64,000 bases of DNA from contig OZ024744.1 in NCBI GenBank assembly GCA_964016885.1, forward strand, positions 133,796,001-133,860,000, in the 5' to 3' direction. This document shows, piece after piece, positions 24,401-64,000 of the stretch. Source of the DNA: Eledone cirrhosa. Its lineage: Eukaryota. The translations under genes and the position numbers were made by a program. The notes beneath the pieces are model-generated. The model was given only the letters and a program-made list of their open reading frames with translations. It was not told the origin of the DNA and made no database searches. The stretch's first letter is position 1; each line of letters opens with the position of its first letter.

Positions 24401-24780
24401 TAAGTTAAGTTGGGGTTAAGTTAAGTTGCAGTTAAGTTAAGTTGAGGTTAAGTTAAGGTGCGGTTAAGTTAAGTTGGGGTTAAGTTAAGTTGGGGCTAAG
24501 TTAAGTTGGGGCTAAGTTAAGTTGGGGCTAAGTTAAGTTGGGGTTAAGTTAAGTCGGGGTTAAGTTAAGTTGGGGTTAAGTTAAGTTGAGGTTAATTTAA
24601 TTTGGGGTTAAGTTAAGTTGGGGTTAAGTTAAGTTGGGGCTAAGTTAAGTTGGGGTCAAGTTAAGTTGGGGTTAAGTTAAGTTGGTTAGTTAAGTTGAGT
24701 TTAAGTTAAGTTGGGGTTAAGTTAAGTTGGGGTTAAGTTAAGTTGGGGTTAAGTTAAGTTGGGGTTAAGTTAAGTCGGGG

Positions 24781-35920: not shown

Positions 35921-35943
35921 GTTGGGGTTTATTTAAGTTGGGG

Positions 35944-36293
35944 TTAATTAAGTTGGGGTTAAGTTAAGTTGGGGTTAATTTAAGTTGGGGTTGAGTTAAG
36001 TTGGGGTTAAGTTAAGTTGGGGTTATATTAAGTTGGGGTTAAGTTAAGTTGGGGTTCAGTTAAGTTGGGTATGAGTTAAGTTGGGGTTAAGTTAAGTTGG
36101 GGTTAAGTTAAGTTGGGGTTAATTAAGTTGGGGTTAAGTTAAGTTGGGGTTAATTTAAGTTGGGGTTGAGTTAAGTTGGGGTTAAGTTAAGTTGGGGTTA
36201 TATTAAGTTGGGGTTAAGTTAAGTTGGGGTTCAGTTAAGTTGGGTATAAGTTAAGTTGGGGTTAAGTTAAGTTGGGGTTAAGTTAAGTTGGGG
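35944..36293 (+). repeat. Local 175-bp tandem duplication carrying the private GGGTAT variant
   Basis: TTAATTAAG at 35944/36119 and GGGTAT at 36067/36242. Confidence 0.75.
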
Positions 36294-37631: not shown

Positions 37632-37685
37632 AAGTTGGGGTTAAGTTAAGTTGGGGTTAACCCCAACTTAACTTAACCCCAACTT
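37632..37685. repeat. Perfect 54-bp palindrome with no spacer, centred on GGGGTT|AACCCC
   Basis: The 27-nt arms are exact reverse complements (right arm AACCCCAACTTAACTTAACCCCAACTT). Imperfect pairing can extend over most of the cassette. Confidence 0.93.
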
Positions 37686-37831
37686 CACTCAACCCCAACG
37701 TAACTCAACCCCAACTTAACTTAACCCCAACTTCACTCAACCCCAACTTAACTTAACCCCAACTTCACTCAACCCCAACTTCCAACTTGACTTAACCCCA
37801 ACTTAACTTAGCCCCAACTTAACTTAAGCCC
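37659..37831 (-). repeat. Inverted cassette 1: about 10.5 monomers in reverse orientation (CCCCAACTTAACTTAA on +)
   Basis: The sequence switches at ...GGGGTT|AACCCCAACTTAACTTAACCCC... and returns to forward orientation at ...AACTTAAGCCC|TAAGTCGGGG. Confidence 0.97.
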
Positions 37832-43100: not shown

Positions 43101-45683
43101 AGTTGGGGTTAAGTTAAGTTAGGTTTAAGTTAAGTTGGGGTTAAGTTAAGTTGGGGTTAAGTTAAGTTGGGGTTAAGTTAAGTTGGGGTTAAGTTAAGTT
43201 GGGGTTAAGTTAATTTGTGGTTAAGTTAAGTTTGGGTTAAGTTAAGTTGGGGTTAAATTAAGTTTGGGTTAAGTTAAGTTGGGGTTAAGTTAAGTTGGGG
43301 TTAAGTTAAGTTGGGGATAAGTTAAGTTGGGGATAATTTAAGTTGGGGTTAAGTTAAGTTGGGTTTAAGTTAAGTTGGGGTTAAGTTAAGTTGGGGATAA
43401 GTTAAGTTGGGGTTAAGTTAAGTTGGGGTTAAGTTAAGTTGAGGCTAAGTTAAGTTGGGGCTGAGTTAAGTTGGGGTTAAGTTAAGTTGGGGTTAAGTTA
43501 AGTTGGGGTTAATTTAAGTTGGGGTTTATTTAAGTTGGGGTTACGTTAAGTTGGTGTTAAGTTAAGTTGGGGTTAATTTAAGTTGGGGTTAATTAAGCTG
43601 GGGTTAAGTTAAGTTGGGGTTAAGTTAAGATGGGGTTAATTTAAGTTGGGATTGAGTTAAGTTGGGGTTAAGTTAAGTTGGGGTTAAGTTAAGTTGGTGT
43701 TAAGTTAAGTTGTGGCTAAGTTAAGTTGGGGCTGAGTTAAGTTGGGGCTGAGTTAAGTTGGGGTTAAGTTAAGTTGGGGTTGAGTTAAGTTGGGGTTAAG
43801 TTAAGTTGGGGTCAAGTTAAGTCGGGGTTAAGTTGGGGTTAAGTTAAGTTAGGGTTAAGTTAAGTTGGGGTTAAGTTAAGTTGGGGTTAAGTTAAGTTGG
43901 AGTTAAGTTAAGTTGGGGTTAAGTTAAGTTGGGGTTAAGTTAATTTGTGGTTAAGTTAAGTTGGGGTTAAGTTAAGTTGGGGTTAAGTTAAGTTGGGGTT
44001 AAGTTAAGTCGGGGTTAAGTTAAGTTGGGGTTAAGTTAAGTTGGGGTTAATTTAAGTTGGGGTTAAGTTAAGTTGGGGTTAAGTTAAGTTGGGGTTAAGT
44101 TAAGATGGGGTTAAGTTAAGTTGGGGTTAAGTTAAGTTGAGGTTAAGTTAAGTTGGGGTTAAATTAAGTTGGGGTTAAGTTAAGTTGGGGTTAAGTTAAG
44201 TTGGGGTTAAGTTAAGTTGAGGATAAGTTAAGTTGGGGATAATTTAAGTTGGGGTTAAGTTAAGTTGGGTTCAAGTTAAGTTGGGGTTAAGTTAAGTTGG
44301 GGTTAAGTTAAGTTGGGGTTAAGTTAAGTTGGGGTTAAGTTAAGTTGGGGTTAAGTTAAGTTGGGGCTAAGTTAAGTTGGGGCTGAGTTAAGTTGGGGTT
44401 AAGTTAAGCTGGGGTTAAGTTAAGTTGGGGTTAAGTTAAGTTGGGGTTTATTTAAGTTGGGGTTAAATTAAGTTGGGGTTCAGTTAAGTTGGGGTTAAGA
44501 TAAGTTGGGGTTAAGATGGGGTTAAATTAAGTTGGGGTTAAGTTAAGTTGGGGTTAAGTTAAGTTGGGGTTAAGTTAAGTTGGGGTTAAGTTAAGTCGGG
44601 GTTAAGTTAAGTCGGGGTTAAGTTAAGTTAGGGTTCAGTTAAGTTGGGGTTAAGTTAAGTTGGGGTTGAGTTAAGTTGGGGTTGAGTTAAATTGGGGTTG
44701 AGTTAAGTTGGGGTTGAGTTAAGTTGGTTTTGAGTTAAGTTGGGGTTAAGTTAAGTTGGGGTTAAGTTAAGTTGCAGTTAAGTTAAGTTGAGGTTAAGTT
44801 AAGGTGCGGTTAAGTTAAGTTGGGGTTAAGTTAAGTTGGGGCTAAGTTAAGTTGGGGCTAAGTTAAGTTGGGGCTAAGTTAAGTTGGGGTTAAGTTAAGT
44901 CGGGGTTAAGTTAAGTTGGGGTTAAGTTAAGTTGAGGTTAATTTAATTTGGGGTTAAGTTAAGTTGGGGTTAAGTTAAGTTGGGGCTAAGTTAAGTTGGG
45001 GTTAAGTTAAGTTGGGTTTAAGTTAAGTTGGGGTTAAGTTAAGTTGGTGTCAAGTTAAGTTGGGGTTAAGTTAAGTTGGTTAGTTAAGTTGAGTTTAAGT
45101 TAAGTTGGGGTTAATTTAAGTTGGGGTTAAGTTAAGTTGGGGTTAAGTTAAGTTGGGGTTAAGTTAAGTTGGGGTTAAGTTAAGTTGGGGTTAAGTTAAG
45201 TCGGGGTTAATTTAAGTCGGGGTTAAGTTAAGTTAGGGTTCAGTTAAGTTGGGGTTAAGTTAAGTTGGGGTTGAGTTAAGTTGGGGTTGAGTTAAATTGG
45301 CGTTGAGTTAAGTTGCGGTTGAGTTAAGTTGGTGTTGAGTTAAGTTGGGGTTAAGTTAAGTTGGGGTTAAGTTAAGTTGCAGTTAAGTTAAGTTGAGGTT
45401 AAGTTAAGGTGGGGTTAAGTTAAGTCGGGGTTAAGTTAAGTTGTGGTTGAGTTAAGTTGGGGTTAATTTAAGTTGGGGCTAAGTTAATTTGTGGTTAAGT
45501 TAAGTTGGGGTTAAGTTAAGTTGGGGTTAAGTTAAGTTGGGGTTGAGTTAAGTTGGGGTTGAGTTAATTTGGGGTTAAGTTAAGTTGGGGTTAAGTTAAG
45601 TTGGGTTTAAGTTAAGTTGGGGTTAAATTAAGTTGGGGTTAAATTAAGGTTGGGTTAAGTTAAGTTGGGGGTAAGTTAAGTTG
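40105..45683 (+). repeat. Tandem duplication, period about 2.8 kb
   Basis: Private markers: TTTGGG 40468/43233 (+2,765), GGGTTCAAG 41459/44272 (+2,813), AAGGTTGGG 42836/45649 (+2,813). The 48-bp shift equals 3 monomers. Confidence 0.85.
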
Positions 45684-48600
45684 GGGGCAAGTTAAGTTGG
45701 GGTTAATTTAAGTTGGGGTTAAATTAAGTTGGGGTTACGTTAAGTTGGTGTTAAGTTAAGTTGGGGTTAATTTAAGTTGGGGTTAATTAAGTTGGGGTTA
45801 AGTTAAGTTGGGGTTAAGTTAAGTTGGGGTTAATTTAAGTTGGGGTTGAGTTAAGTTGGAGTTCAGTTAAGTTGGGGATAAGTTAAGTTGGGGTTAAGTT
45901 AAGTTGGGGTTAAGTTAAGTTGGGGTTAAGTTAAGTTGGTGTTCAGTTAAGTTGGGGCTAAGTTAAGTTGGGGCTGAGTTAAGTTGGGGCTGAGTTAAGT
46001 TGGGCTTCAGTTAAGTTGGGGTTGAGTTAAGTTGGGGTTAAGTTAAGTTGGGGTCAAGTTAAGTTGGGGTTAAGTTGGGGTTAAGTTAAGTTAGGTTTAA
46101 GTTAAGTTGGGGTTAAGTTAAGTTGGGGTTAAGTGAAGTTGGGGTTAAGTTAAGTTGGGGTTAAGTTAAGTTGGGGTTAAGTTAATTTGTGGTTAAGTTA
46201 AGTTGGGGTTAAGTTAAGTTGGGGTTAAGTTAAGTTGGGGTTAAGTTAAGTCGGGGTTAAGTTAAGTTGGGGTTAAGTTAAGTTGGGGTTAATTTAAGTT
46301 GGGGTTAAGTTAAGTTGGGGTTAAGTTAAGTCGGGGTTAAGTTAAGTTGGGGTTAAGTTAAGTTGGGGTTAAGTTAAGTTGAGGTTAAGTTAAGTTGGGG
46401 TTAAATTAAGTTGGGGTTAAGTTAAGTTGGGGTTAAGTTAAGTTGGGGTTAAGTTAAGTTGGGGATAAGTTAAGTTGGGGATAATTTAAGTTGGGGTTAA
46501 GTTAAGTTGGGGATAAGTTAAGTTGGGGCTGATTTAAGTTGGGGTTAAGTTAAGTTGGGGTTAAGTTAAGTTGGGGTTAATTTAAGTTGGGGTTTATTTA
46601 AGTTGGGGTTACGTTAAATTGGTGTTAAGTTAAGTTGGGGTTAATTTAAGTTGGGGTTAATTAAGTTGGGGTTAAGTTAAGTTGGGGTTAATTTAAGTTG
46701 GGGTTAATTTAAGTTGGGGTTGAGTTAAGTTGGGGTTAAGTTAAGTTGGGGTTATATTAAGTTGGGGTTAAGTTAAGTTGGGGTTCAGTTAAGTTGGGGA
46801 TAAGTTAAGTTGGGGTTAAGTTAAGTTGGGGTTAAGTTAAGTTGGGGTTAAGTTAAGTTGGTGTTAAGTTAAGTTGGGGCTAATTTAAGTTGGGGCTGAG
46901 TTAAGTTGGGGCTGAGTTAAGTTGGGCTTAAGTTAAGTTGGCGTCAAGTTAAGTTGGGGTTAAGTTGGGGTTAAGTTAAGTTAGGTTTAAGTTAAGTTGG
47001 GGTTAAGTTAAGTTGGGGTTAAGTTAAGTTGGGGTTAAATTAAGTTGGGGTTAAGTTAAGTTGGGGTTAAGTTAATTTGTGGTTAAGTTAAGTTGGGGTT
47101 AAGTTAAGTTGGGGTTAAGTTAAGTTGGGGTTAAGTTAAGTCGGGGTTAAGTTAAGTTGGGTTTAAGTTAAGTTGGGGTTAATTTAAGTTGGGGTTAAGT
47201 TAAGTTGGGGTCAAGTTAAGTTGGGGTTAAGTTGGGGTTAAGTTAAGTTAGGTTTAAGTTAAGTTGGGGTTAAGTTAAGTTGGGGTTAAGTTAAGTTGGG
47301 GTTAAGTTAAGTTGGGGTTAAGTTAATTTGTGGTTAAGTTAAGTTGGGGTTAAGTTAAGTTGGGCTTAAGTTAAGTTGGGGTTAAGTTAAGTCGGGGTTA
47401 AGTTAAGTTGGGGTTAAGTTAAGTTGGGGTTAATTTAAGTTGGGGTTTATTTAAGTTGGGGTTACGTTAAGTTGGTGTTAAGTTAAGTTGGGGTTAATTT
47501 AAGTTGGGGTTAATTAAGTTGGGGTTAAGTTAAGTTGGGGTTAAGTTAAGATGGGGTTAATTTAAGTTGGGGTTGAGTTAAGTTGGGGTTAAGTTAAGTT
47601 GGGGTTATATTAAGTTGGGGTTAAGTTAAGTTGGGGTTCAGTTAAGTTGGGGATAAGTTAAGTTGGGGTTAAGTTAAGTTGGGGTTAAGTTAAGTTGGGG
47701 TTAAGTTAAGTTGGTGTTAAGTTAAGTTGTGGCTAAGTTAAGTTGGCGCTGAGTTAAGTTGGGGTTACGTTAAGTTGGTGTTAAGTTAAGTTGGGGTTAA
47801 TTTAAGTTGGGGTTAATTAAGTTGGGGTTAAGTTAAGTTGGGGTTAAGTTAAGATGGGGTTAATTTAAGTTGCGGTTGAGTTAAGTTGGGGTTAAGTTAA
47901 GTTGGGGTTATATTAAGTTGGGGTTAAGTTAAGTTGGGGTTCAGTTAAGTTGGGGATAAGTTAAGTTGGGGTTAAGTTAAGTTGGGGCTAAGTTAAGTTG
48001 GGGCTGAGTTAAGTTGGGGCTGAGTTAAGTTGGGGTTAAGTTGGGGTTAATTTAAGTTAGGTTTAAGTTAAGTTGGGGTCAAGTTAAGTTGGGGTTAAGT
48101 TGGGGTTAATTTAAGTTAGGTTTAAGTTAAGTTGGGGTTAAGTTAAGTTGGGGTTAAGTTAAGTTGGGGTTAAGTTAAGTTGGGGTTAAGTTAAGTTGGG
48201 GTTGAGTTAAGTTGGGGTTAAGTTAAGTTGGGGTCAAGTTAAGTTGGGGTTAAGTTGGGGTTAAGTTAAGTTAGGTTTAAGTTAAGTTGGGGTTAAGTTA
48301 AGTTGGGGTTAAGTTAAGTTGGGGTTAAGTTAAGTTGGGGTTAAGTTAAGTTGGGGTTAAGTTAATTTGTGGTTAAGTTAAGTTGGGGTTAAGTTGAGTT
48401 GGGGTTAAGTTAAGTTGGGGTTAAATTAAGTTGGGGTTAAGTTAAGTTGGGGTTAAGTTAAGTTGGGGTTAAGTTAAGTTGGGGATAAGTTAAGTTGGGG
48501 ATAATTTAAGTTGGGGTTAAGTAAAGTTGGGTTTAAGTTAAGTTGGGGTTAAGTTAAGTTGGGGATAAGTTAAGTTGGGGTTAAGTTAAGTTGGGGTTAA

Positions 48601-51600
48601 GTTAAGTTGAGGCTAAGTTAAGTTGGGGCTGAGTTAAGTTGGGGTTAAGTTAAGTTGGGGTTAAGTTAAGTTGGGGTTAATTTAAGTTGGGGTTTATTTA
48701 AGTTGGGGTTACGTTAAGTTGGTGTTAAGTTAAGTTGGGGTTAATTTAAGTTGGGGTTAATTAAGTTGGGGTTAAGTTAAGTTGGGGTTAAGTTAAGATG
48801 GGGTTAATTTAAGTTGGGATTGAGTTAAGTTGGGGTTAAGTTAAGTTGGGGTTAAGTTAAGTTGGTGTTAAGTTAAGTTGTGGCTAAGTTAAGTTGGGGC
48901 TGAGTTAAGTTGGGGCTGAGTTAAGTTGGGGTTAAGTTAAGTTGGGGTCAAGTTAAGTCGGGGTTAAGTTGGGGTTAAGTTAAGTTAGGGTTAAGTTAAG
49001 TCGGGGTTAAGTTAAGTTGGGGTTAAGTTAAGTTGGGGTTAAGTTAAGTTGGGGTTAAGTTAAGTTGGGGTTGAGTTAAGTTGGGGTTAAGTTAAGTTGG
49101 GGTCAAGTTAAGTCGGGGTTAAGTTGGGGTTAAGTTAAGTTAGGGTTAAGTTAAGTCGGGGTTAAGTTAAGTTGGGGTTAAGTTAAGTTGGGGTTAAGTT
49201 AAGTCGGGGTTAAGTTAAGTTGGGGTTAAGTTAAGTTGGGGTTAATTTAAGTTGGGGTTAAGTTAAGTTGGGGTTAAGTTAAGTTGGGGTTAAGTTAAGA
49301 TGGGGTTAAGTTAAGTTGGGGTTAAGTTAAGTTGAGGTTAAGTTAAGTTGGGGTTAAATTAAGTTGGGGTTAAGTTAAGTTGGGGTTAAGTTAAGTTGGG
49401 GTTAAGTTAAGTTGAGGATAAGTTAAGTTGGGGATAATTTAAGTTGGGGTTAAGTTAAGTTGGGTTTAAGTTAAGTTGGGGTTAAGTTAAGTTGGGGTTA
49501 AGTTAAGTTGGGGTTAAGTTAAGTTGGGGTTAAGTTAAGTTGGGGCTAAGTTAAGTTGGGGCTGAGTTAAGTTGGGGTTAAGTTAAGCTGGGGTTAAGTT
49601 AAGTTGGGGTTAAGTTAAGTTGGGGTTTATTTAAGTTGGGGTTAAATTAAGTTGGGGTTCAGTTAAGTTGGGGTTAAGATAAGTTGGGGTTAAGATGGGG
49701 TTAAATTAAGTTGGGGTTAAGTTAAGTTGGGGTTAAGTTAAGTTGGGGTTAAGTTAAGTTGGGGTTAAGTTAAGTCGGGGTTAAGTTAAGTCGGGGTTAA
49801 GTTAAGTTAGGGTTCAGTTAAGTTGGGGTTAAGTTAAGTTGGGGTTGAGTTAAGTTGGGGTTGAGTTAAATTGGGGTTGAGTTAAGTTGGGGTTGAGTTA
49901 AGTTGGTTTTGAGTTAAGTTGGGGTTAAGTTAAGTTGGGGTTAAGTTAAGTTGCAGTTAAGTTAAGTTGAGGTTAAGTTAAGGTGCGGTTAAGTTAAGTT
50001 GGGGTTAAGTTAAGTTGGGGCTAAGTTAAGTTGGGGCTAAGTTAAGTTGGGGCTAAGTTAAGTTGGGGTTAAGTTAAGTTGGGGTTAAGTTAAGTCGGGG
50101 TTAAGTTAAGTTGGGGTTAAGTTAAGTTGAGGTTAATTTAATTTGGGGTTAAGTTAAGTTGGGGTTAAGTTAAGTTGGGGCTAAGTTAAGTTGGGGTTAA
50201 GTTAAGTTGGGTTTAAGTTAAGTTGGTTAGTTAAGTTGAGTTTAAGTTAAGTTGGGGTTAATTTAAGTTGGGGTTAAGTTAAGTTGGGGTTAAGTTAAGT
50301 TGGGGTTAAGTTAAGTTGGGGTTAAGTTAAGTTGGGGTTAAGTTAAGTCGGGGTTAATTTAAGTCGGGGTTAAGTTAAGTTAGGGTTCAGTTAAGTTGGG
50401 GCTAAGTTAAGTTGGGGCTAAGTTAAGTTGGGGCTAAGTTAAGTTGGGGTTAAGTTAAGTTGGGGTTAAGTTAAGTCGGGGTTAAGTTAAGTTGAGGTTA
50501 AGTTAAGTTGGGGTTAAATTAAGTTGGGGTTAAGTTAAGTTGGGGTTAAGTTAAGTTGGGGTTAAGTTAAGTTGAGGATAAGTTAAGTTGGGGATAATTT
50601 AAGTTGGGGTTAAGTTAAGTTGGGTTTAAGTTAAGTTGGGGTTAAGTTAAGTTGGGGTTAAGTTAAGTTGGGGTTAAGTTAAGTTGGGGTTAAGTTAAGT
50701 TGGGGTTAAGTTAAGTCGGGGTTAAGTTAAGTTAGGGTTCAGTTAAGTTGGGGTTAAGTTAAGTTGGGGTTGAGTTAAGTTGAGGTTAAGTTAAGTTGGG
50801 GTTAAATTAAGTTGGGGTTAAGTTAAGTTGGGTTTAAGTTAAGTTGGGGTTAAGTTAAGTTGGGGTTAAGTTAAGATGGGGTTAAGTTAAGTTGGGGTTA
50901 AGTTAAGTTGAGGTTAAGTTAAGTTGGGGTTAAATTAAGTTGGGGTTAAGTTAAGTTGGGGTTAAGTTAAGTTGGGGTTAAGTTAAGTTGAGGATAAGTT
51001 AAGTTGGGGATAATTTAAGTTGGGGTTAAGTTAAGTTGGGTTTAAGTTAAGTTGGGGTTAAGTTAAGATGGGGTTAAGTTAAGTTGGGGTTAAGTTAAGA
51101 TGGGGTTAAGTTAAGTTGGGGTTAAGTTAAGTTGAGGTTAAGTTAAGTTGGGGTTAAATTAAGTTGGGGTTAAGTTAAGTTGGGGTTAAGTTAAGTTGGG
51201 GTTAAGTTAAGTTGAGGATAAGTTAAGTTGGGGATAATTTAAGTTGGGGTTAAGTTAAGTTGGGTTTAAGTTAAGTTGGGGTTAAGTTAAGTTGGAGTTA
51301 AGTTAAGTTGGGGTTAAGTTAAGTTGGGGTTAAGTTAAGTTGGGGCTAAGTTAAGTTGGGGCTGAGTTAAGTTGGGGTTAAGTTAAGCTGGGGTTAAGTT
51401 AAGTTGGGGTTAAGTTAAGTTGGGGTTTATTTAAGTTGGGGTTAAATTAAGTTGGGGTTCAGTTAAGTTGGGGTTAAGATAAGTTGGGGTTAAGATGGGG
51501 TTAAATTAAGTTGGGGTTAAGTTAAGTTGGGGTTAAGTTAAGTTGGGGTTAAGTTAAGTTGGGGTTAAGTTAAGTCGGGGTTAAGTTAAGTCGGGGTTAA

Positions 51601-54600
51601 GTTAAGTTAGGGTTCAGTTAAGTTGGGGTTAAGTTAAGTTGGGGTTGAGTTAAGTTGGGGTTGAGTTAAATTGGGGTTGAGTTAAGTTGGTTTTGAGTTA
51701 AGTTGGGGTTAAGTTAAGTTGGGGTTAAGTTAAGTTGCAGTTAAGTTAAGTTGAGGTTAAGTTAAGGTGCGGTTAAGTTAAGTTGGGGTTAAGTTAAGTT
51801 GGGGCTAAGTTAAGTTGGGGCTAAGTTAAGTTGGGGCTAAGTTAAGTTGGGGTTAAGTTAAGTTGGGGTTAAGTTAAGTCGGGGTTAAGTTAAGTTGGGG
51901 TTAAGTTAAGTTGAGGTTAATTTAATTTGGGGTTAAGTTAAGTTGGGGTTAAGTTAAGTTGGGGCTAAGTTAAGTTGGGGTTAAGTTAAGTTGGGTTTAA
52001 GTTAAGTTGGGGTTAAGTTAAGTTGGTTAGTTAAGTTGAGTTTAAGTTAAGTTGGGGTTAATTTAAGTTGGGGTTAAGTTAAGTTGGGGTTAAGTTAAGT
52101 TGGGGTTAAGTTAAGTTGGGGTTAAGTTAAGTTGGGGTTAAGTTAAGTCGGGGTTAATTTAAGTCGGGGTTAAGTTAAGTTAGGGTTCAGTTAAGTTGGG
52201 GTTAAGTTAAGTTGGGGTTGAGTTAAGTTGGGGTTGAGTTAAATTGGCGTTGAGTTAAGTTGGGGTTGAGTTAAGTTGGTGTTGAGTTAAGTTGGGGTTA
52301 AGTTAAGTTGGGGTTAAGTTAAGTTGCAGTTAAGTTAAGTTGAGGTTAAGTTAAGGTGGGGTTAAGTTAAGTCGGGGTTAAGTTAAGTTGTGGTTGAGTT
52401 AAGTTGGGGTTAATTTAAGTTGGGGCTAAGTTAATTTGTGGTTAAGTTAAGTTGGGGTTAAGTTAAGTTGGGGTTAAGTTAAGTTGGGGTTGAGTTAAGT
52501 TGGGGTTGAGTTAATTTGGGGTTAAGTTAAGTTGGGGTTAAGTTAAGTTGGGTTTAAGTTAAGTAGGGGTTAAATTAAGTTGGGGTTAAATTAAGGTGGG
52601 GTGAAGTTAAGTTGGGGGTAAGTTAAGTTGGGGGCAAGTTAAGTTGGGGTTAATTTAAGTTGGGGTTAAATTAAGTTGGGGTTACGTTAAGTTGGTGTTA
52701 AGTTAAGTTGGGGTTAATTTAAGTTGGGGTTAATTAAGTTGGGGTTAAGTTAAGTTGGGGTTAAGTTAAGTTGGGGTTAGTTTAAGTTGGGGTTGAGTTA
52801 AGTTGGAGTTCAGTTAAGTTGGGGATAGGTTAAGTTGGGGTTAAGTTAAGTTGGGGTTAAGTTAAGTTGGGGTTAAGTTAAGTTGGTGTTAAGTTAAGTT
52901 GGGGCTAAGTTAAGTTGGGGCTGAGTTAAGTTGGGGCTGAGTTAAGTTGGGGTTAAGTTAAGTTGGGGTTGAGTTAAGTTGGGGTTAAGTTAAGTTGGGG
53001 TCAAGTTAAGTTGGGGTTAAGTTGGGGTTAAGTTAAGTTAGGTTTAAGTTAAGTTGGGGTTAAGTTAAGTTGGGGTTAAGTTAAGTTGGGGTTAAGTTAA
53101 GTTGGGGTTAAGTTAATTTGTGGTTAAGTTAAGTTGGGGTTAATTTAAGTTGGGGTTAAGTTAAGTTGGGGTTAAGTTAAGTCGGGGTTAAGTTAAGTTG
53201 GGGTTAAGTTAAGTTGGGGTTAATTTAAGTTGGGGTTAAGTTAAGTTGGGGTTAAGTTAAGTTGGGGTTAAGTTAAGTTGAGGTTAAGTTAAGTTGGGGT
53301 TAAATTAAGTTGGGGTTAAGTTAAGTTGGGGTTAAGTTAAGTTGGGGTTAAGTTAAGTTGGGGATAAGTTAAGTTGGGGATAATTTAAGTTGGGGTTAAG
53401 TTAAGTTGGGTTTAAGTTAAGTTGGGGATAAGTTAAGTTGGGGATAAGTTAAGTTGGGGTTAAGTTAAGTTGGGGTTAAGTTAAGTTGGGGTTAAGTTAA
53501 GTTGGAGCTAAGTTAAGTTGGGGCTGAGTTAAGTTGGGGTTAAGTTAAGTTGGGGTTAAGTTAAGTTGGGGTTAATTTAAGTTGGGGTTTATTTAAGTTG
53601 GGGTTACGTTAAATTGGTGTTAAGTTAAGTTGGGGTTAATTTAAGTTGGGGTTAATTAAGTTGGGGTTAAGTTAAGTTGGGGTTAATTTAAGTTGGGGTT
53701 AATTTAAGTTGGGGTTGAGTTAAGTTGGGGTTAAGTTAAGTTGGGGTTATATTAAGTTGGGGTTAAGTTAAGTTGGGGTTCAGTTAAGTTGGGGATAAGT
53801 TAAGTTGGGGTTAAGTTAAGTTGGAGTTAAGTTAAGTTGGGGTTAAGTTAAGTTGGTGTTAAGTTAAGTTGGGGCTAATTTAAGTTGGGGCTGAGTTAAG
53901 TTGGGGCTGAGTTAAGTTGGGGTTAAGTTAAGTTGGGGTCAAGTTCAGTTGGGGTTAAGTTGGGGTTAAGTTAAGTTAGGTTTAAGTTAAGTTGGGGTTA
54001 AGTTAAGTTGGGGTTAAGTTAAGTTGGGGTTAAATTAAGTTGGGGTTAAGTTAAGTTGGGGTTAAGTTAATTTGTGGTTAAGTTAAGTTGGGGTTAAGTT
54101 AAGTTGGGGTTAAATTAAGTTGGGGTTAAGTTAAGTCGGGGTTAAGTTAAGTTGGGGTTAAGTTAAGTTGGGGTTAATTTAAGTTGGGGTTAAGTTAAGT
54201 TGGGGTCAAGTTAAGTTGGGGTTAAGTTGGGGTTAAGTTAAGTTAGGTTTAAGTTAAGTTGGGGTTAAGTTAAGTTGGGGTTAAGTTAAGTTGGGGTTAA
54301 GTTAAGTTGGGGTTAAGTTAATTTGTGGTTAGGTTAAGTTGGGGTTAAGTTAAGTTGGGCTTAAGTTAAGTTGGGGTTAAGTTAAGTCGGGGTTAAGTTA
54401 AGTTGGGGTTAAGTTAAGTTGGGGTTAATTTAAGTTGGGGTTTATTTAAGTTGGGGTTACGTTAAGTTGGTGTTAAGTTAAGTTGGGGTTAATTTAAGTT
54501 GGGGTTAATTAAGTTGGGGTTAAGTTAAGTTGGGGTTAAGTTAAGATGGGGTTAATTTAAGTTGGGGTTGAGTTAAGTTGGGGTTAAGTTAAGTTGGGGT

Positions 54601-55028
54601 TATATTAAGTTGGGGTTAAGTTAAGTTGGGGTTCAGTTAAGTTGGGGATAAGTTAAGTTGGGGTTAAATTAAGTTGGGGTTAAGTTAAGTTGGGGTTAAG
54701 TTAAGTTGGTGTTAAGTTAAGTTGTGGCTAAGTTAAGTTGGCGCTGAGTTAAGTTGGGGTTAATTTAAGTTGGGGTTAAGTTAAGTTGGGATTAATTTAA
54801 GTTGGGGTTTATTTAAGTTGGGGTTACGTTAAGTTGGTGTTAAGTTAAGTTGGGGTTAATTTAAGTTGGGGTTAATTAAGTTGGGGTTAAGTTAAGTTGG
54901 GGTTAAGTTAAGATGGGGTTAATTTAAGTTGCGGTTGAGTTAAGTTGGGGTTAAGTTAAGTTGGGGTTATATTAAGTTGGGGTTAAGTTAAGTTGGGGTT
55001 CAGTTAAGTTGGGGATAAGTTAAGTTGG

Positions 55029-58000
55029 GGTTAAGTTAAGTTGGGGTTAAGTTAAGTTGGGGTTAAGTTAAGTTGGTGTTAAGTTAAGTTGTGGCTAAGT
55101 TAAGTTGGGGCTGAGTTAAGTTGGGGCTGAGTTAAGTTGGGGTTAAGTTAAGTTGGGGTTGAGTTAAGTTGGGGTTAAGTTAAGTTGGGGTCAAGTTAAG
55201 TTGGGGTTAAGTTGGGGTTAAGTTAAGTTAGGTTTAAGTTAAGTTGGGGTTAAGTTAAGTTGGGGTTAAGTTAAGTTGGGGTTAAGTTAAGTTGGGGTTA
55301 AGTTAAGTTGGGGTTAAGTTAATTTGTGGTTAAGTTAAGTTGGGGTTAAGTTAAGTTGGGGTTAAGTTAAGTTGGGGTTAAGTTAAGTCGGGGTTAAGTT
55401 AAGTTGGGGTTAAGTTAAGTTGGGGTTAATTTAAGTTGGGGTTAAGTTAAGTTGGGGTTAAGTTAAGTTGGGGTTAAGTTAAGATGGGGTTAAGTTAAGT
55501 TGGGGTTAAGTTAAGTTGAGGTTAAGTTAAGTTGGGGTTAAATTAAGTTGGGGTTAAGTTAAGTTGGGGTTAAGTTAAGTTGGGGCTAAGTTAAGTTGGG
55601 GCTGAGTTAAGTTGGGGTTAAGTTAATTTGGGGTTAAGTTAAGTTGGGGTTAAGTTAAGTTGGGGTTTATTTAAGTTGGGGTTAAATTAAGTTGGGGTTC
55701 AGTTAAGTTGGGGTTAAGATAAGTTGGGGTTAAGATGGGGTTAAATTAAGTTGGGGTTAAGTTAAGTTGGGGTTAAGTTAAGTTGGGGTTAAGTTAAGTT
55801 GGGGTTAAGTTAAGTCGGGGTTAAGTTAAGTCGGGGTTAAGTTAAGTTAGGGTTCAGTTAAGTTGGGGTTAAGTTAAGTTGGGGTTGAGTTAAGTTGGGG
55901 TTGAGTTAAATTGGGGTTGAGTTAAGTTGGGGTTGAGTTAAGTTGGTTTTGAGTTAAGTTGGGGTTAAGTTAAGTTGGGGTTAAGTTAAGGTGCGGTTAA
56001 GTTAAGTTGGGGTTAAGTTAAGTTGGGGCTAAGTTAAGTTGGGGCTAAGTTAAGTTGGGGCTAAGTTAAGTTGGGGTTAAGTTAAGTTGGGGTTAAGTTA
56101 AGTCGGGGTTAAGTTAAGTTGGGGTTAAGTTAAGTTGAGGTTAATTTAATTTGGGGTTAAGTTAAGTTGGGGTTAAGTTAAGTTGGGGTTAAGTTAAGTT
56201 GGGTTTAAGTTAAGTTGGGGTTAAGTTAAGTTGGGGTCAAGTTAAGTTGGGGTTAAGTTAAGTTGGGGTTGAGTTAAGTTGGGGTTGAGTTAAATTGGCG
56301 TTGAGTTAAGTTGGGGTTGAGTTAAGTTGGTGTTGAGTTAAGTTGGGGTTAAGTTAAGTTGGGGTTAAGTTAAGTTGCAGTTAAGTTAAGTTGAGGTTAA
56401 GTTAAGGTGGGGTTAAGTTAAGTCGGGGTTAAGTTAAGTTGTGGTTGAGTTAAGTTGGGGTTAATTTAAGTTGGGGCTAAGTTAATTTGTGGTTAAGTTA
56501 AGTTGGGGTTAAGTTAAGTTGGGGTTAAGTTAAGTTGGTGTTAAGTTAAGTTGTGGCTAAGTTAAGTTGGGGCTGAGTTAAGTTGGGGCTGAGTTAAGTT
56601 GGGGTTAAGTTAAGTTGGGGTTGAGTTAAGTTGGGGTTAAGTTAAGTTGGGGTCAAGTTAAGTTGGGGTTAAGTTGGGGTTAAGTTAAGTTAGGTTTAAG
56701 TTAAGTTGGGGTTAAGTTAAGTTGGGGTTAAGTTAAGTTGGGGTTAAGTTAAGTTGGGGTTAAGTTAAGTTGGGGTTAAGTTAATTTGTGGTTAAGTTAA
56801 GTTGGGGTTAAGTTAAGTTGGGGTTAAGTTAAGTTGGGGTTAAGTTAAGTCGGGGTTAAGTTAAGTTGGGGTTAAGTTAAGTTGGGGTTAATTTAAGTTG
56901 GGGTTAAGTTAAGTTGGGGTTAAGTTAAGTTGGGGTTAAGTTAAGATGGGGTTAAGTTAAGTTGGGGTTAAGTTAAGTTGAGGTTAAGTTAAGTTGGGGT
57001 TAAATTAAGTTGGGGTTAAGTTAAGTTGGGGTTAAGTTAAGTTGGGGCTAAGTTAAGTTGGGGCTGAGTTAAGTTGGGGTTAAGTTAATTTGGGGTTAAG
57101 TTAAGTTGGGGTTAAGTTAAGTTGGGGTTTATTTAAGTTGGGGTTAAATTAAGTTGGGGTTCAGTTAAGTTGGGGTTAAGATAAGTTGGGGTTAAGATGG
57201 GGTTAAATTAAGTTGGGGTTAAGTTAAGTTGGGGTTAAGTTAAGTTGGGGTTAAGTTAAGTTGGGGTTAAGTTAAGTCGGGGTTAAGTTAAGTCGGGGTT
57301 AAGTTAAGTTAGGGTTCAGTTAAGTTGGGGTTAAGTTAAGTTGGGGTTGAGTTAAGTTGGGGTTGAGTTAAATTGGGGTTGAGTTAAGTTGGGGTTGAGT
57401 TAAGTTGGTTTTGAGTTAAGTTGGGGTTAAGTTAAGTTGGGGTTAAGTTAAGGTGCGGTTAAGTTAAGTTGGGGTTAAGTTAAGTTGGGGCTAAGTTAAG
57501 TTGGGGCTAAGTTAAGTTGGGGCTAAGTTAAGTTGGGGTTAAGTTAAGTTGGGGTTAAGTTAAGTCGGGGTTAAGTTAAGTTGGGGTTAAGTTAAGTTGA
57601 GGTTAATTTAATTTGGGGTTAAGTTAAGTTGGGGTTAAGTTAAGTTGGGGTTAAGTTAAGTTGGGTTTAAGTTAAGTTGGGGTTAAGTTAAGTTGGGGTC
57701 AAGTTAAGTTGGGGTTAAGTTAAGTTGGGGTTGAGTTAAGTTGGGGTTGAGTTAAATTGGCGTTGAGTTAAGTTGGGGTTGAGTTAAGTTGGTGTTGAGT
57801 TAAGTTGGGGTTAAGTTAAGTTGGGGTTAAGTTAAGTTGCAGTTAAGTTAAGTTGAGGTTAAGTTAAGGTGGGGTTAAGTTAAGTCGGGGTTAAGTTAAG
57901 TTGTGGTTGAGTTAAGTTGGGGTTAATTTAAGTTGGGGCTAAGTTAATTTGTGGTTAAGTTAAGTTGGGGTTAAGTTAAGTTGGGGTTAAGTTAAGTTGG
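55029..58000 (+). repeat. Tandem duplication, period 1,462 bp
   Basis: Markers: GGTG 55077/56539 and GGTGCGG 55994/57456. The match ends at 58000/58001. Confidence 0.85.
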
Positions 58001-59034
58001 GTTTGAGTTAAGTTGGGGTTGAGTTAATTTGGGGTTAAGTTAAGTTGGGGTTAAGTTAAGTTGGGTTTAAGTTAAGTTGGGGTTAAATTAAGTTGGGGTT
58101 AAATTAAGTTGGGGTTAAGTTAAGTTGGGGGTAAGTTAAGTTGGGGGCAAGTTAAGTTGGGGTTAATTTAAGTTGGGGTTAAATTAAGTTGGGGTTACGT
58201 TAAGTTGGTGTTAAGTTAAGTTGGGGTTAATTTAAGTTGGGGTTAATTAAGTTGGGGTTAAGTTAAGTTGGGGTTAAGTTGGGGTTAAGTTAAGTTGGGG
58301 TTAAGTTAAGTTGGGGTTAAGTTAAGTTGAGGTTAAGTTAAGTTGGGGTTAAATTAAGTTGGGGGTACGTTAAGTTGGGGTTAAGTTAAGTTGGGGTTAA
58401 GTTAAGTTGGGGTTAAGTTAAGTTGGGGTTAAGTTAAGTTGGGGTTAAGTTAAGTTGGTGTTAAGTTAAGTTGGGGCTAAGTTAAGTTGGGGCTGAGTTA
58501 AGTTGGGGCTGAGTTAAGTTGGGGTTAAGTTAAGTTGGGGTTGAGTTAAGTTGGGGTTAAGTTAAGTTGGAGTCAAGTTAAGTTGGGGTTAAGTTGGGGT
58601 TAAGTTAAGTTAGGTTTAAGTTAAGTTGGGGTTAAGTTAAGTTGGGGTTAAGTTAAGTTGGGGTTAAGTTAAGTTGGGGTTAAGTTAAGTTGGGGTTAAG
58701 TTAATTTGTGGTTAAGTTAAGTTGGGGTTAAGTTAAGTTGGGGTTAAGTTAAGTTGGGGTTAAGTTAAGTCGGGGTTAAGTTAAGTTGGGGTTAAGTTAA
58801 GTTGGGGTTAATTTAAGTTGGGGTTGAATTAAGTTGGGGTTAAGTTAAGTTGGGGTTAAATTAAGTTGGGGTTAAGTTAAGTTGGGGTTAAGTCAAGTTG
58901 GGGTTAAGTTAAGTTGGGGATAAGTTAAGTTGGGGATAATTTAAGTTGGGGTTAAGTTAAGTTGGGTTTAAGTTAAGTTGGGGTTAAGTTAAGTTGGGGT
59001 TAAGTTAAGTTGGGGTTAAGTTAAGTTGGGGTTA

Positions 59035-60610
59035 AGTTAAGTTGGGGTTAATTAAGTTGGGGTTAAGTTAAGTTGGGGTTAAGTTAAGATGGGGTTAATT
59101 TAAGTTGGGGTTGAGTTAAGTTGGGGTTAAGTTAAGTTGGGGTTATATTAAGTTGGGGTTAAGTTAAGTTGGGGTTCAGTTAAGTTGGGGATAAGTTAAG
59201 TTGGGGTTAAGTTAAGTTGGGGTTAAGTTAAGTTGGGGTTAAGTTAAGTTGGTGTTAAGTTAAGTTGTGGCTAAGTTAAGTTGGCGCTGAGTTAAGTTGG
59301 GGTTAAGTTAAGTTGGGGTTAAGTTAAGTTGGGATTAATTTAAGTTGGGGTTTATTTAAGTTGGGGTTACGTTAAGTTGGTGTTAAGTTAAGTTGGGGTT
59401 AATTTAAGTTGGGGTTAATTAAGTTGGGGTTAAGTTAAGTTGGGGTTAAGTTAAGATGGGGTTAATTTAAGTTGCGGTTGAGTTAAGTTGGGGTTAAGTT
59501 AAGTTGGGGTTATATTAAGTTGGGGTTAAGTTAAGTTGGGGTTCAGTTAAGTTGGGGATAAGTTAAGTTGGGGTTAAGTTAAGTTGGGGTTAAGTTAAGT
59601 TGGGGTTAAGTTAAGTTGGTGTTAAGTTAAGTTGTGGCTAAGTTAAGTTGGGGCTGAGTTAAGTTGGGGCTGAGTTAAGTTGGGGTTAAGTTAAGTTGGG
59701 GTTGAGTTAAGTTGGGGTTAAGTTAAGTTGGGGTCAAGTTAAGTTGGGGTTAAGTTGGGGTTAAGTTAAGTTAGGTTTAAGTTAAGTTGGGGTTAAGTTA
59801 AGTTGGGGTTAAGTTAAGTTGGGGTTAAGTTAAGTTGGGGTTAAGTTAAGTTGGGGTTAAGTTAATTTGTGGTTAAGTTAAGTTGGGGTTAAGTTAAGTT
59901 GGGGTTAAGTTAAGTTGGGGTTAAGTTAAGTCGGGGTTAAGTTAAGTTGGGGTTAAGTTAAGTTGGGGTTAATTTAAGTTGGGGTTAAGTTAAGTTGGGG
60001 TTAAGTTAAGTTGGGGTTAAGTTAAGATGGGGTTAAGTTAAGTTGGGGTTAAGTTAAGTTGAGGTTAAGTTAAGTTGGGGTTAAATTAAGTTGGGGTTAA
60101 GTTAAGTTGGGGTTAAGTTAAGTTGGGGCTAAGTTAAGTTGGGGCTGAGTTAAGTTGGGGTTAAGTTAATTTGGGGTTAAGTTAAGTTGGGGTTAAGTTA
60201 AGTTGGGGTTTATTTAAGTTGGGGTTAAATTAAGTTGGGGTTCAGTTAAGTTGGGGTTAAGATAAGTTGGGGTTAAGATGGGGTTAAATTAAGTTGGGGT
60301 TAAGTTAAGTTGGGGTTAAGTTAAGTTGGGGTTAAGTTAAGTTGGGGTTAAGTTAAGTCGGGGTTAAGTTAAGTCGGGGTTAAGTTAAGTTAGGGTTCAG
60401 TTAAGTTGGGGTTAAGTTAAGTTGGGGTTGAGTTAAGTTGGGGTTGAGTTAAATTGGGGTTGAGTTAAGTTGGGGTTGAGTTAAGTTGGTTTTGAGTTAA
60501 GTTGGGGTTAAGTTAAGTTGGGGTTAAGTTAAGGTGCGGTTAAGTTAAGTTGGGGTTAAGTTAAGTTGGGGCTAAGTTAAGTTGGGGCTAAGTTAAGTTG
60601 GGGCTAAGTT
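59035..60610 (+). repeat. Dispersed copy of about 54490-56070 (offset +4,543)
   Basis: Markers: GGCGCTGAG 54742/59285 and GGTGCGG 55994/60537. Both copies lack the TTGCAG-TTGAGG units that usually precede GGTGCGG. Confidence 0.75.
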
Positions 60611-60943
60611 AAGTTGGGGCTAAGTTAAGTTGGGGTTAAGTTAAGTTGGGGTTAAGTTAAGTCGGGGTTAAGTTAAGTTGGGGTTAAGTTAAGTTGGGGT
60701 TAATTTAAGTTGGGGTTAAGTTAAGTCGGGGTTAAGTTAAGTTGGGGTTAAGTTAAGTTGGGGTTAAGTTAAGTTGGGTTTAAGTTAAGTTGGGGTTAAG
60801 TTAAGTTGGGGTTAAGTTAAGTTGGGGTTAAGTTAAGTTGGTTAGTTAAGTTGAGTTTAAGTTAAGTTGGGGTTAATTTAAGTTGGGGTTAAGTTATGTT
60901 GGGGTTAAGTTAAGTTGGGGTTAAGTTAAGTTGGGGTTAAGTT

Positions 60944-60997
60944 AAGTTGGGGTTAAGTTAAGTTGGGGTTAACCCCAACTTAACTTAACCCCAACTT
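60944..60997. repeat. Perfect 54-bp palindrome at the left junction of cassette 2
   Basis: Same structure as 37632-37685, centred between 60970 and 60971. Confidence 0.93.
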
Positions 60998-61143
60998 CAC
61001 TCAACCCCAACGTAACTCAACCCCAACTTAACTTAACCCCAACTTCACTCAACCCCAACTTAACTTAACCCCAACTTCACTCAACCCCAACTTCCAACTT
61101 GACTTAACCCCAACTTAACTTAGCCCCAACTTAACTTAAGCCC
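60971..61143 (-). repeat. Inverted cassette 2: copy of cassette 1 at offset +23,312
   Basis: Same junctions and the same internal variants (CTTCACTC x3, AACGTAACTC, CTTCCAACTTGAC, CTTAGCCCC, TTAAGCCC) in the same order. Confidence 0.97.
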
Positions 61144-64000
61144 TAAGTCGGGGTTAAGTTAAGTTGGCGTTAAGTTAAGTTAGGCTTAACTTAAGTTGGG
61201 GTTCAGTTAAGTTGGGGGTAAGTTAAGTTGGGGGTAAGTTAAGGTGGGGTTAAGTTAAGTTGCGGTTAAGTTGGGGTTAAGTTAAGTTAGGGTTAAGTTA
61301 AGTTGGGGTTGAGTTAAGTTGGGGTTAATTAAGTGGTGGTTATGTTAAGTTGGGGTTAAGTTAAGTTGGGGTTAATTTAAATTGGGGTTAAGTTAACTTT
61401 GTGGTTAAGTTAAGTTGGGGTTAAGTTAAGTTGGGGTTAAGTTGGGGTTGAGTTAAGTTGGGGTTGAGTGAAGTTGGGGTTAAGTTAAGTTGGGGTTAAG
61501 TTTAGTCGGGGTTAAGTTAAGTTGTGGTTGATTTAAGTTGGGGTTAATTTAAGTTGGGGCTAAGTTAATTTGTGGTTAAGTTAAGTTGGGGTTAAGTTAA
61601 GTTGGGGTTAAGTTAAGTTGGGGTTGAGTTAAGTTGGGGTTGAGTTAATTTGGGGTTAAGTTAAGTTGGGGTTAAGTTAAGTTGGGTTTAAGTTAAGTTG
61701 GGGTTAAATTAAGTTGGGGTTAAATTAAGTTGGGGTTAAGTTAAGTTGGGGGTAAGTTAATTTGGGGGCAAGTTAAGTTGGGGTTAATTTAAGTTGGGGT
61801 TAAATTAAGTTGGGGTTACGTTAAGTTGGTGTTAAGTTAAGTTGGGGTTAATTTAAGTTGGGGTTAATTAAGTTGGGGTTAAGTTAAGTTGGGGTTAAGT
61901 TAAGTTGGGGTTAATTTAAGTTGGGGTTGAGTTAAGTTGGGGTTAAGTTAATTTGGGGTTATATTAAGTTGGGGTTAAGTTAAGTTGGGGTTCAGTTAAG
62001 TTGGGGATAAGTTAAGTTGGGGTTAAGTTAAGTTGGGGTTAAGTTAAGGTGGGGTTAAGTTAAGTTGGTGTTGAGTTAAGCTGGGGCTAAGTTAAGTTGG
62101 GGCTGAGTTAAGTTGGGGCTGAGTTAAGTTGGGGTTAAGTTAAGTTGGGGTTGAGTTAAGTTGGGGTTAAGTTAAGTTGGGGTCAAGTTAAGTTGGGGTT
62201 ACGTTGGGGTTAAGTTAAGTTGGGGTTAAGTTAAGTTGGGGTTAAGTTAATTTGTGGTTAAGTTAAGTTGGGGTTAAGTTAAGTTGGGGTTAAGTTAAGT
62301 TGGGGTTAAGTTAAGTCGGGGTTAAGTTAAGTTGGGGTTAAGTTAAGTTGGGGTTAATTTAAGTTGGGGTTAAGTTAAGTTGGGGTTAAGTTAAGTTGGG
62401 GTTAAGTTAAGTTGGGGTTAAGTTAAGTTGGGGTTAAGTTAAGTTGAGGTTAAGTTAAGTTGGGGTTAAATTAAGTTAGGGTTAAGTTAAGTTGGGGTTA
62501 AGTTAAGTTGGGGTTAAGTTAAGTTGGGGATAAGTTAAGTTGGGGATAATTTAAGTTGGGGTTAAGTTAAGTTGGGTTTAAGTTAAGTTGGGGATAAGTT
62601 AAGTTGGGGATAAGTTAAGTTGGGGTTAAGTTAAGTTGGGGTTAAGTTAAGTTGGGGTTAAGTTAAGTTGGGGCTAAGTTAAGTTGGGGCTGAGTTAAGT
62701 TGGGGTTAAGTTAAGTTGGGGTTAAGTTAAGTTGGGGTTAATTTAAGTTGGGGTTTATTTAAGTTCGGGTTACGTTAAATTGGTGTTAAGTTAAGTTGGG
62801 GTTAATTTAAGTTGGGGTTAATTAAGTTGGGGTTAAGTTAAGTTGGGGTTAATTTAAGTTGGGGTTAATTTAAGTTGGGGTTGAGTTAAGTTGGGGTTAA
62901 GTTAAGTTGGGGTTATATTAAGTTGGGGTTAAGTTAAGTTGGGGTTCAGTTAAGTTGGGGCTAATTTAAGTTGGGGCTGAGTTAAGTTGGGGCTGAGTTA
63001 AGTTGGGCTTAAGTTAAGTTGGGGTCAAGTTAAGTTGGGGTTAAGTTGGGGTTAAGTTAAGTTAGGTTTAAGTTAAGTTGGGGTTAAGTTAAGTTGGGGT
63101 TAAGTTAAGTTGGGGTTAAATTAAGTTGGGGTTAAGTTAAGTTGGGGTTAAGTTAATTTGTGGTTAAGTTAAGTTGGGGTTAAGTTAAGTTGGGGTTAAG
63201 TTAAGTTGGGGTTAAGTTAAGTCGGGGTTAAGTTAAGTTGGGTTTAAGTTAAGTTGGGGTTAATTTAAGTTGGGGTTAAGTTAAGTTGGGGTCAAGTTAA
63301 GTTGGGGTTAAGTTGGGGTTAAGTTAAGTTAGGTTTAAGTTAAGTTGGGGTTAAGTTAAGTTGGGGTTAAGTTAAGTTGGGGTTAAGTTAAGTTGGGGTT
63401 AAGTTAATTTGTGGTTAAGTTAAGTTGGGGTTAAGTTAAGTTGGGCTTAAGTTAAGTTGGGGTTAAGTTAAGTCGGGGTTAAGTTAAGTTGGGGTTAAGT
63501 TAAGTTGGGGTTAATTTAAGTTGGGGTTTATTTAAGTTGGGGTTACGTTAAGTTGGTGTTAAGTTAAGTTGGGGTTAATTTAAGTTGGGGTTAATTAAGT
63601 TGGGGTTAAGTTAAGTTGGGGTTAAGTTAAGATGGGGTTAATTTAAGTTGGGGTTGAGTTAAGTTGGGGTTAAGTTAAGTTGGGGTTATATTAAGTTGGG
63701 GTTAAGTTAAGTTGGGGTTCAGTTAAGTTGGGGATAAGTTAAGTTGGGGTTAAGTTAAGTTGGGGTTAAGTTAAGTTGGGGTTAAGTTAAGTTGGTGTTA
63801 AGTTAAGTTGTGGCTAAGTTAAGTTGGCGCTGAGTTAAGTTGGGGTTAAGTTAAGTTGGGGTTAAGTTAAGTTGGGATTAATTTAAGTTGGGGTTTATTT
63901 AAGTTGGGGTTACGTTAAGTTGGTGTTAAGTTAAGTTGGGGTTAATTTAAGTTGGGGTTAATTAAGTTGGGGTTAAGTTAAGTTGGGGTTAAGTTAAGAT

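What the first reader, a model, noticed from the sequence alone, without database searches (positions are those of the whole stretch)
60944..61153. Second, apparently identical inverted cassette 23,312 bp downstream: the inversion is propagated intact
Seen: the cassette and about 450 bp of downstream flank keep a constant offset of 23,312 (TGGTGGTTATG 38022/61334; TTGAGTGAAG 38152/61464). The left flank differs by exactly 2 monomers (TTATGTT marker offset 23,280), and much of the 23 kb between the cassettes has been reshuffled. Inference: a single inversion event was amplified as part of a tens-of-kb super-repeat. A potentially unstable palindrome persisting unchanged while its surroundings turn over suggests either very recent duplication or retention. 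The cassettes may punctuate the array at intervals.
Basis: partly seen in the sequence, partly recalled or inferred. Interest (0 to 1): 0.7.

Follow-up and report, generated by a model that had tools for sequence, protein, structure and literature searches.

The report
Inverted satellite cassette seeding larger inversions
The two identical back-to-front pieces are 2 of more than 900 copies of one old short inversion in a multi-megabase 16-base satellite; they mutate as fast as their neighbours, so they are likely passengers, but they sit at one end of two larger inverted insertions and likely helped form them.

Summary
Real, but the window hides the scale. The 174-bp inverted cassette (60971-61144; twin at 37659-37832, offset 23,312) is one of at least 926 copies, all placed on contig C28 as far as listed. 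In 215 sampled copies there are 112 different sequences of 87-447 bp with the same two junctions, so one origin. There is no 23-kb super-repeat: the pair shares about 2 kb, its 683-bp exact match ranks 32 of 274 in the window, and spacing is irregular. There is no retention signal: 29 substitution events in cassettes against 38 in 1.85 times more flank (ratio 1.41, p=0.16). New: both larger orientation changes found in the sampled main array (2.2 kb and about 0.58 Mb) switch strand inside a cassette at one end and at a new TTAA join at the other, between host ends that are contiguous elsewhere. An independent 3-copy cassette on C18 fits a 3-1-2-4 template switch. Amplified inversion sites are known in Tribolium and human satellites. 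Reads were not checked.

The parts
1..64000 (+). 16-bp satellite array, G-rich strand on +. The window is G000:C28:133,796,001-133,860,000, inside an array spanning about 127-135.3 Mb.
60971..61144 (-). Inverted cassette, copy 2: 174 bp, about 11 monomers, youngest ('T') subtype, commonest sequence type.
37659..37832 (-). Inverted cassette, copy 1, identical to copy 2.
60944..60997 (.). Left junction of copy 2: spacer-less palindrome centred on a TTAA, perfect arms of 27 bp.
37632..37685 (.). Left junction of copy 1, the same palindrome.
61133..61154 (.). Right junction of copy 2: imperfect, with a short loop. It descends from the same junction as all 215 sampled copies.
37821..37842 (.). Right junction of copy 1.
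60408..62594 (+). Approximate extent of the block co-duplicated with copy 2 (about 2.1 kb). Partner: about 37144-39266.
37144..39266 (+). Approximate extent of the block co-duplicated with copy 1.
4749..4900 (+). A third copy of the right-flank markers, with no cassette in front of it.
   Evidence: markers at 4749, 4761, 4819, 4891; no C-rich segment there

Best explanation
The cassette is one of more than 900 descendants of a single short inversion, likely made by a replication template switch and likely carried along without selection as kb-sized blocks of the satellite were duplicated, and cassette copies likely served as the strand-switch point for two larger inverted insertions. Step 1 (inferred for C28; reconstructed for the independent C18 cassette): a DNA end switched to the opposite strand at the monomer's self-complementary TTAA, copied some monomers backwards and switched back. 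Step 2 (shown): the product, with fixed junctions, was multiplied in blocks of variable size. It now forms five subtypes that occupy different domains, changes by substitutions and whole-monomer indels, and is lost in recombinant lineages. Step 3 (structure shown in the assembly, mechanism inferred): a cassette offers host-like monomers on the wrong strand, so a repairing end that pairs with it crosses the junction and copies in reverse; a second switch at a TTAA restores the direction. The order of the two switches cannot be read from the product.
For: One origin: all 195 minus-to-plus switches in 1.09 Mb of sampled DNA use the one right junction. Of 194 plus-to-minus switches, 185 were classed as the left junction, 7 more are mutated forms of it by eye, and 2 are new. 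Neutral change: 112 sequences in 215 copies; 29 events in 19,277 copy-bases of cassette against 38 in 35,609 of the adjoining 174-bp flanks, ratio 1.41, p=0.16; shared variants 11 against 12 (only the 111 copies of 174 bp were used). Block turnover: 52% of the window is in exact duplicates at least as long as the cassette match. Loss: 14 of 16 window copies of a left-flank marker have no cassette, 12 of them on one shared path; 10 of 202 sampled copies of the nearest right marker lack it. Event A (C28:132,857,040-132,859,241): 9 cassette monomers, the right junction and 2 kb of flank sit inverted in the host, closed by a new TTAA join, with at least 92 bp of host repeated on both sides; the uninterrupted host motif occurs 19 times in the sample. 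Event B (131,964,578 to 133,355,376; 584 kb net of a gap-bounded contig): a new TTAA join on the left and two cassette monomers on the right. The two host ends are contiguous in two neighbouring units, with 35 host bases replaced by 33 cassette bases. The pieces on either side of the gaps share exact matches of 7.6 and 7.2 kb. A genome search for this second kind of TTAA join returned only these two places on C28 and three on C18. Cassettes are 1.8% of that block's DNA. C18: the cassette is an inverted copy of its own upstream flank and resumes where the copy began.
Against: Only two large events, noticed after the fact, in one assembly, with no read-level check. Event B spans two 200-N gaps with degraded sequence beside them. 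Its size at insertion is unknown, and it is not a simple mirror of the neighbouring domain. The source of the C28 cassette was not found in forward orientation, so its template-switch origin is by analogy. The C28 right junction is not a clean TTAA join. The C18 cassette shows that an end can return without a pre-existing cassette. The rate test has modest power and cannot see selection on copy number or on the junction alone. About 1.2 Mb of roughly 8.4 Mb was read, much of it chosen around cassettes.
Confidence: 0.7

Rival explanations
1. Retained structural element: the junction hairpins are kept because they organise chromatin or mark centromere function, as proposed for conserved inversion sites in Tribolium.
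For: Both junctions persist in all five subtypes. The strand can fold into long hairpins (-177.5 kcal/mol against -71.5 for shuffles). Perfect left-junction arms are longer in the young subtypes (27 bp or more in most) than in the old ones (14 bp or less in most).
Against: No reduced substitution rate. Mutated left junctions are amplified too. About 3 Mb of the array (127-130.25 Mb) and the C18 and C2 arrays have no copy of it in the listings. Folding is expected for any inverted satellite segment. The copies were found by their junctions, so junction persistence is partly built in.
Confidence: 0.1
2. Pure passenger: cassettes have no part in later rearrangements. The two large events merely copied segments that began in a cassette, or are leftovers of more complex histories.
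For: n=2 and post hoc. A copied segment containing a right junction is the easiest orientation change to detect. The C18 cassette formed without a prior cassette.
Against: In both events the switch lies inside the 174-bp cassette, in monomer register with the host, and the host ends are contiguous elsewhere. Cassettes are under 2% of the DNA, so two of two by chance is about 3 in 10,000 if breakpoints were random.
Confidence: 0.15
3. Assembly or sequencing artefact: fold-back reads, false duplication or mis-joins.
For: The array holds gaps with degraded ends, and one gap-bounded contig starts at a left-junction centre. No reads were laid.
Against: Nested subtypes with shared variants in separate domains. 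The C28 cassette is not a mirror of its own flank. The window pair differs in its flanks. This rival is live mainly for event B.
Confidence: 0.04
4. Tens-of-kb super-repeat with one cassette per unit.
For: The constant offset over 683 bp.
Against: Homology ends within about 2 kb. There is no peak at 23.3 kb in the offset spectrum. Only 4 of 96 intervals between listed copies lie within 1 kb of 23,312.
Confidence: 0.01

Closest known systems
Conserved inversion sites / macro-dyad symmetries in Tribolium freemani and T. madens satellites (PMC12581902, PMC13081366; passages read)
   Same: A few fixed inversion junctions, with no foreign DNA, are present in very many near-identical copies inside a satellite.
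   Different: There the inverted sub-arrays are several kb, tend to symmetry and occur on many chromosomes, and a function is proposed. Here the segment is 87-447 bp, is placed on one contig as far as listed, and is no more conserved than its flanks.
Strand switches in human HSat3B5 and beta-satellite arrays, and the Mb-scale inversion in the chr1 active HOR array (10.1101/2021.07.12.452052, 10.64898/2026.07.22.740206; passages read)
   Same: Hundreds of strand switches in one array, read as by-products of array expansion, plus a large internal inversion.
   Different: The passages read do not trace the switches to one ancestral junction pair or place a large inversion's breakpoint in such a cassette. 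Supplements were not seen.
Four-point short template switch, type 3-1-2-4 (PMC5453318; passages read)
   Same: The C18 cassette is an inverted repeat with an inverted spacer, copied from adjacent sequence.
   Different: The model was built for short clusters in unique DNA. For the C28 cassette the source is no longer identifiable.
DUP-TRP/INV-DUP rearrangements (PMC11293582; passages read)
   Same: One junction by homology within an inverted repeat and the other by a few bases of microhomology; the inverted segment is copied in.
   Different: Here the inverted repeat is a 174-bp satellite cassette present in hundreds of copies, the homology tract is tens of bases, and flanking duplication is about 92 bp or absent.
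Layered expansion of satellite arrays (10.1101/2021.07.12.452052; passages read)
   Same: Domains of different haplotype and age, each with its own cassette subtype.
   Different: Mirror symmetry is weak, and no centromere data are available.

Membership tests
Tandem satellite with variable higher-order blocks | Head-to-tail monomers over megabases with local kb-scale duplications | tested here: met
Fixed 23-kb super-repeat | Collinearity over the period and regular spacing | tested here: not met
Selectively retained element | Lower divergence than co-duplicated flanks | tested here: not met
   ratio 1.41, p=0.16
Four-point template switch (3-1-2-4) | Inverted fragment is the reverse complement of adjacent sequence, and synthesis resumes next to the switch point: C18 cassette | tested here: met
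   Two private monomers are mirrored, with a one-monomer difference in spacing; a cassette-free unit gives the ancestral order
Four-point template switch (3-1-2-4) | The same, for the C28 cassette of this finding | tested here: inconclusive
   No forward-orientation match for the old 344-bp or young 174-bp form; only a short stretch of the 423-bp form matches host
Tribolium-type macro-dyad symmetry | Few conserved inversion-site types in many copies | tested here: met
Tribolium-type macro-dyad symmetry | Multi-kb inverted sub-arrays of similar length | tested here: not met
   87-447 bp segments in kb-long flanks
Tribolium-type macro-dyad symmetry | Same sites on many chromosomes | tested here: not met
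   All listed places are on C28 (first 100 matches of each); extrapolated C28 count about 916 against 926 in the genome
Tribolium-type macro-dyad symmetry | (Peri)centromeric position | not testable with these tools
   No chromatin data; about 90% of exact trimers extrapolate to C28, so it is not a pan-centromeric repeat
DUP-TRP/INV-DUP-like | One junction inside an inverted repeat, by homology | tested here: met
   2 of 2 events
DUP-TRP/INV-DUP-like | Second junction with short microhomology | tested here: met
   TTAA-centred join in 2 of 2
DUP-TRP/INV-DUP-like | Flanking duplications around an inverted triplication | tested here: not met
   At least 92 bp in event A, none in event B; copy number has no meaning in a satellite

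The most novel reading that the evidence does not exclude
One chance micro-inversion, once multiplied by satellite turnover, becomes a distributed set of U-turns that lets repair synthesis reverse direction anywhere in the array. Strand switching in satellites would then be self-promoting, and sub-megabase inversions inside arrays would be inverted insertions launched from such cassettes, with no selection needed to explain 'conserved' inversion sites.
Probability: 0.35. Interest if true: 0.65.

Novelty: new variant of a known kind. Interest (0 to 1): 0.42.

Why it matters
Conserved inversion sites in satellites have been read as possibly functional (PMC13081366, PMC12581902) or as by-products of expansion (10.64898/2026.07.22.740206). 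This array allows the direct control, cassette against co-duplicated flank, and finds no conservation. It also gives base-level breakpoints for a sub-megabase orientation change inside a satellite and points to a testable mechanism. The cassette subtypes work as lineage markers for the array's history.

Tried and rejected
(1) 23-kb periodicity: rejected. (2) Faster mutation in the cassette: a first count gave 18 distinct substitutions against 6 and 6 in the adjoining flanks (p about 0.02). With the same method on both and more copies it fell to ratio 1.41, p=0.16, so it is not claimed. (3) The idea that tail-to-tail TTAA joins never form: the exact search gave 0 (its gap syntax worked), but the C18 cassette has one that the pattern missed through a flank variant. 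Rejected. (4) Fold-back of the immediate flank as the origin of the C28 cassette: not supported. (5) In-place inversion for event B: host contiguity favours insertion. (6) Event B as a simple mirror of the neighbouring domain: not seen. (7) Motif searches in papers found only unrelated hits (listings only). Concept searches listed no paper tracing large satellite inversions to amplified micro-inversions; this rests on listings and passages, with supplements unseen and bioRxiv supplements closed. (8) Earlier scan notes: nothing. No read-level check was made, so the junctions rest on the assembly alone. (10) Rfam on ten neighbouring loci gave only three histone stem-loop matches.

Full report
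Observation. The window is a single 16-bp satellite of 4028.6 copies. Only two stretches are C-rich on the + strand: 37659-37832 and 60971-61144. They are identical, and the exact match runs 683 bp (37618-38300 at offset 23,312). The left flank shifts by two monomers, and collinearity ends within about 2 kb.

The identity is ordinary here. Of 274 exact matches of 300 bp or more in the window, this one ranks 32nd; 52% of the window lies in an exact duplicate at least this long; offsets of 23,000-23,700 hold only four matches. A left-flank marker occurs 16 times in the window and is followed by the cassette twice; 12 of the other 14 share one cassette-free path. The array turns over in blocks of a few kb, not in 23-kb units.

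Genome census. The window is G000:C28:133,796,001-133,860,000; C28 is 136.5 Mb in a 3.0-Gb genome. Exact searches gave 446 copies of a cassette core, 689 and 777-779 of the left-junction palindrome at two stringencies, 926 of the right junction and 104 of this window's subtype. Each search lists 100 matches; all listed matches of the left and right junctions are on C28. Grid samples put the array at about 127-135.3 Mb, with a small related block at 124.6-124.7 Mb. Extrapolating grid densities gives about 830 right junctions, plus 59 and 25 counted directly, close to 926. About 27,600 of 29,906 exact trimers extrapolate to this array. Density is zero in the samples from 127-130.25 Mb and 2-3 per 10 kb in other domains. 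Intervals between listed copies of this subtype run 1.0-31.6 kb (54 intervals) and 2.4-311 kb (42 intervals).

One origin, ordinary change. From 1,192,417 sampled bases (window included, many loci chosen around cassettes) 215 whole cassettes were recovered: 112 sequences of 87-447 bp in five subtypes tied to domains. All carry versions of the same right junction. In the 111 copies of 174 bp, distinct substitution events were 29 in the cassette and 38 in the two adjoining 174-bp flanks, ratio 1.41 per base, p=0.16; shared variants were 11 and 12. An earlier count suggested an excess in the cassette but did not treat both alike. The perfect palindrome has arms of only 27 bp in most young copies. 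Strong folding (z=-22.7) is expected of any inverted satellite piece. The flank marker nearest the right junction lacks a cassette in 10 of 202 sampled places, so losses occur.

Larger orientation changes. Of 389 switches in 1.09 Mb, all 195 minus-to-plus switches use the cassette's right junction; of 194 plus-to-minus switches all but two are the left junction or mutated forms of it. The two exceptions are new joins centred on the monomer's second TTAA, and a genome search for that join returned only these two on C28. Event A: at 132.857-132.859 Mb, nine cassette monomers, the right junction and 2 kb of flank lie inverted in the host. At least 92 bp of host is repeated on both sides, and the best exact templates (927 bp) are 12 kb and 0.8 Mb away. 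The uninterrupted host motif occurs 19 times in the sample. Event B: a minus-strand block runs from 131,964,578 to 133,355,376 and ends in two cassette monomers. It is interrupted by a contig bounded by two 200-N gaps; the pieces on either side share exact matches of 7.6 and 7.2 kb, and the net length is 584 kb. The host sequence left of the block continues into the host sequence right of it in two neighbouring units, with 35 bases replaced by 33 cassette bases. So both events are inverted insertions with one switch inside a cassette and one at a TTAA. Cassettes are 1.8% of the block. Against this: n=2, post hoc, one assembly, no reads, and the block may have grown after insertion.

Origin. 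The C28 cassette's source could not be found in forward orientation, and its right junction is four bases short of a clean TTAA join (read; that it lost them later is inference). An independent cassette of nine monomers, in three copies at C18:10.13-10.19 Mb, has TTAA joins at both ends, mirrors two private monomers of its upstream flank and resumes where the copy began. This fits the 3-1-2-4 event of PMC5453318 (passages). It also shows that a return does not need an existing cassette.

Comparison. Tribolium satellites carry a few inversion-site types in thousands of copies, and a function is proposed with the caveat that preservation may reflect spread (PMC13081366, abstract and passages; PMC12581902, passages). 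Human HSat3 and beta-satellite arrays have hundreds of strand switches, read as by-products of expansion (10.1101/2021.07.12.452052; 10.64898/2026.07.22.740206; passages). The homology-plus-microhomology junction pair is the one described for DUP-TRP/INV-DUP (PMC11293582, passages). The case works like these but fails membership of macro-dyad symmetry (segment too short, one contig) and of DUP-TRP/INV-DUP (no flanking duplications). Searches found no paper on this satellite motif, and searches none on cassettes seeding larger inversions; these were listings, and supplements were not seen.

Verdict. The passenger reading is well supported; the seeding role is plausible on two base-resolved events. 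Interest 0.42; new variant of a known kind.

Noticed in passing
G000:C18:10,129,105; 10,132,205; 10,188,781 (L168, L170, L172): Independent nine-monomer inverted cassette in a second array of the same satellite (at least 9.9-10.41 Mb): three copies, TTAA joins at both ends, mirrors its upstream flank.
   Followed up: yes
G000:C28:124.69-126.0 Mb (L121, L122, L123, L124, L031): Composite macro-repeat with a histone 3' stem-loop match but no histone frame in the 0.9 kb before it in L124, 172-, 196- and 317-bp sub-repeats, a 240-bp stretch of the 16-mer, and short pieces that look like rRNA (recalled; Rfam gave no rRNA match).
   Followed up: partly
G000:C2:209.2-209.4 Mb (L083-L087): The 16-mer alternates with a unit of about 270 bp that resembles the 196-bp repeat near C28:124.7 Mb, forming a composite satellite of about 500 bp.
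   Followed up: no
G000:C28:131,987,543-132,793,542 (L157, L148, L100-L106): Gap-bounded contig with old long cassettes and an intermingled 37-bp AT-rich satellite. It starts at a left-junction centre, resembles the 124.6 Mb block and looks misplaced between two matching pieces.
   Followed up: partly
L125:7327-8706 (C28 about 126.507 Mb): Interstitial 1.4-kb (TAACCC)n tract within about 0.5 Mb of the start of the array; that this is the common animal telomere repeat is recalled.
   Followed up: no
L111, L112, L108 (C28:135.35 Mb, 135.5 Mb, contig end): Beyond the array lie a 32-bp and a 48-bp satellite, and the contig ends in a 30-bp C-rich repeat, not a telomere tract.
   Followed up: no
C28:133.36-133.56 Mb, 131.9 Mb and 135.1-135.2 Mb (L043, L117, L099, L109, L110): Three cassette-free stretches are more alike to each other than to their neighbours, which suggests an older layer split by later expansions.
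   Followed up: partly
window 1-4511 and 5260-9770: Longest exact duplicate in the window: 4,511 bp at offset 5,259.
   Followed up: no
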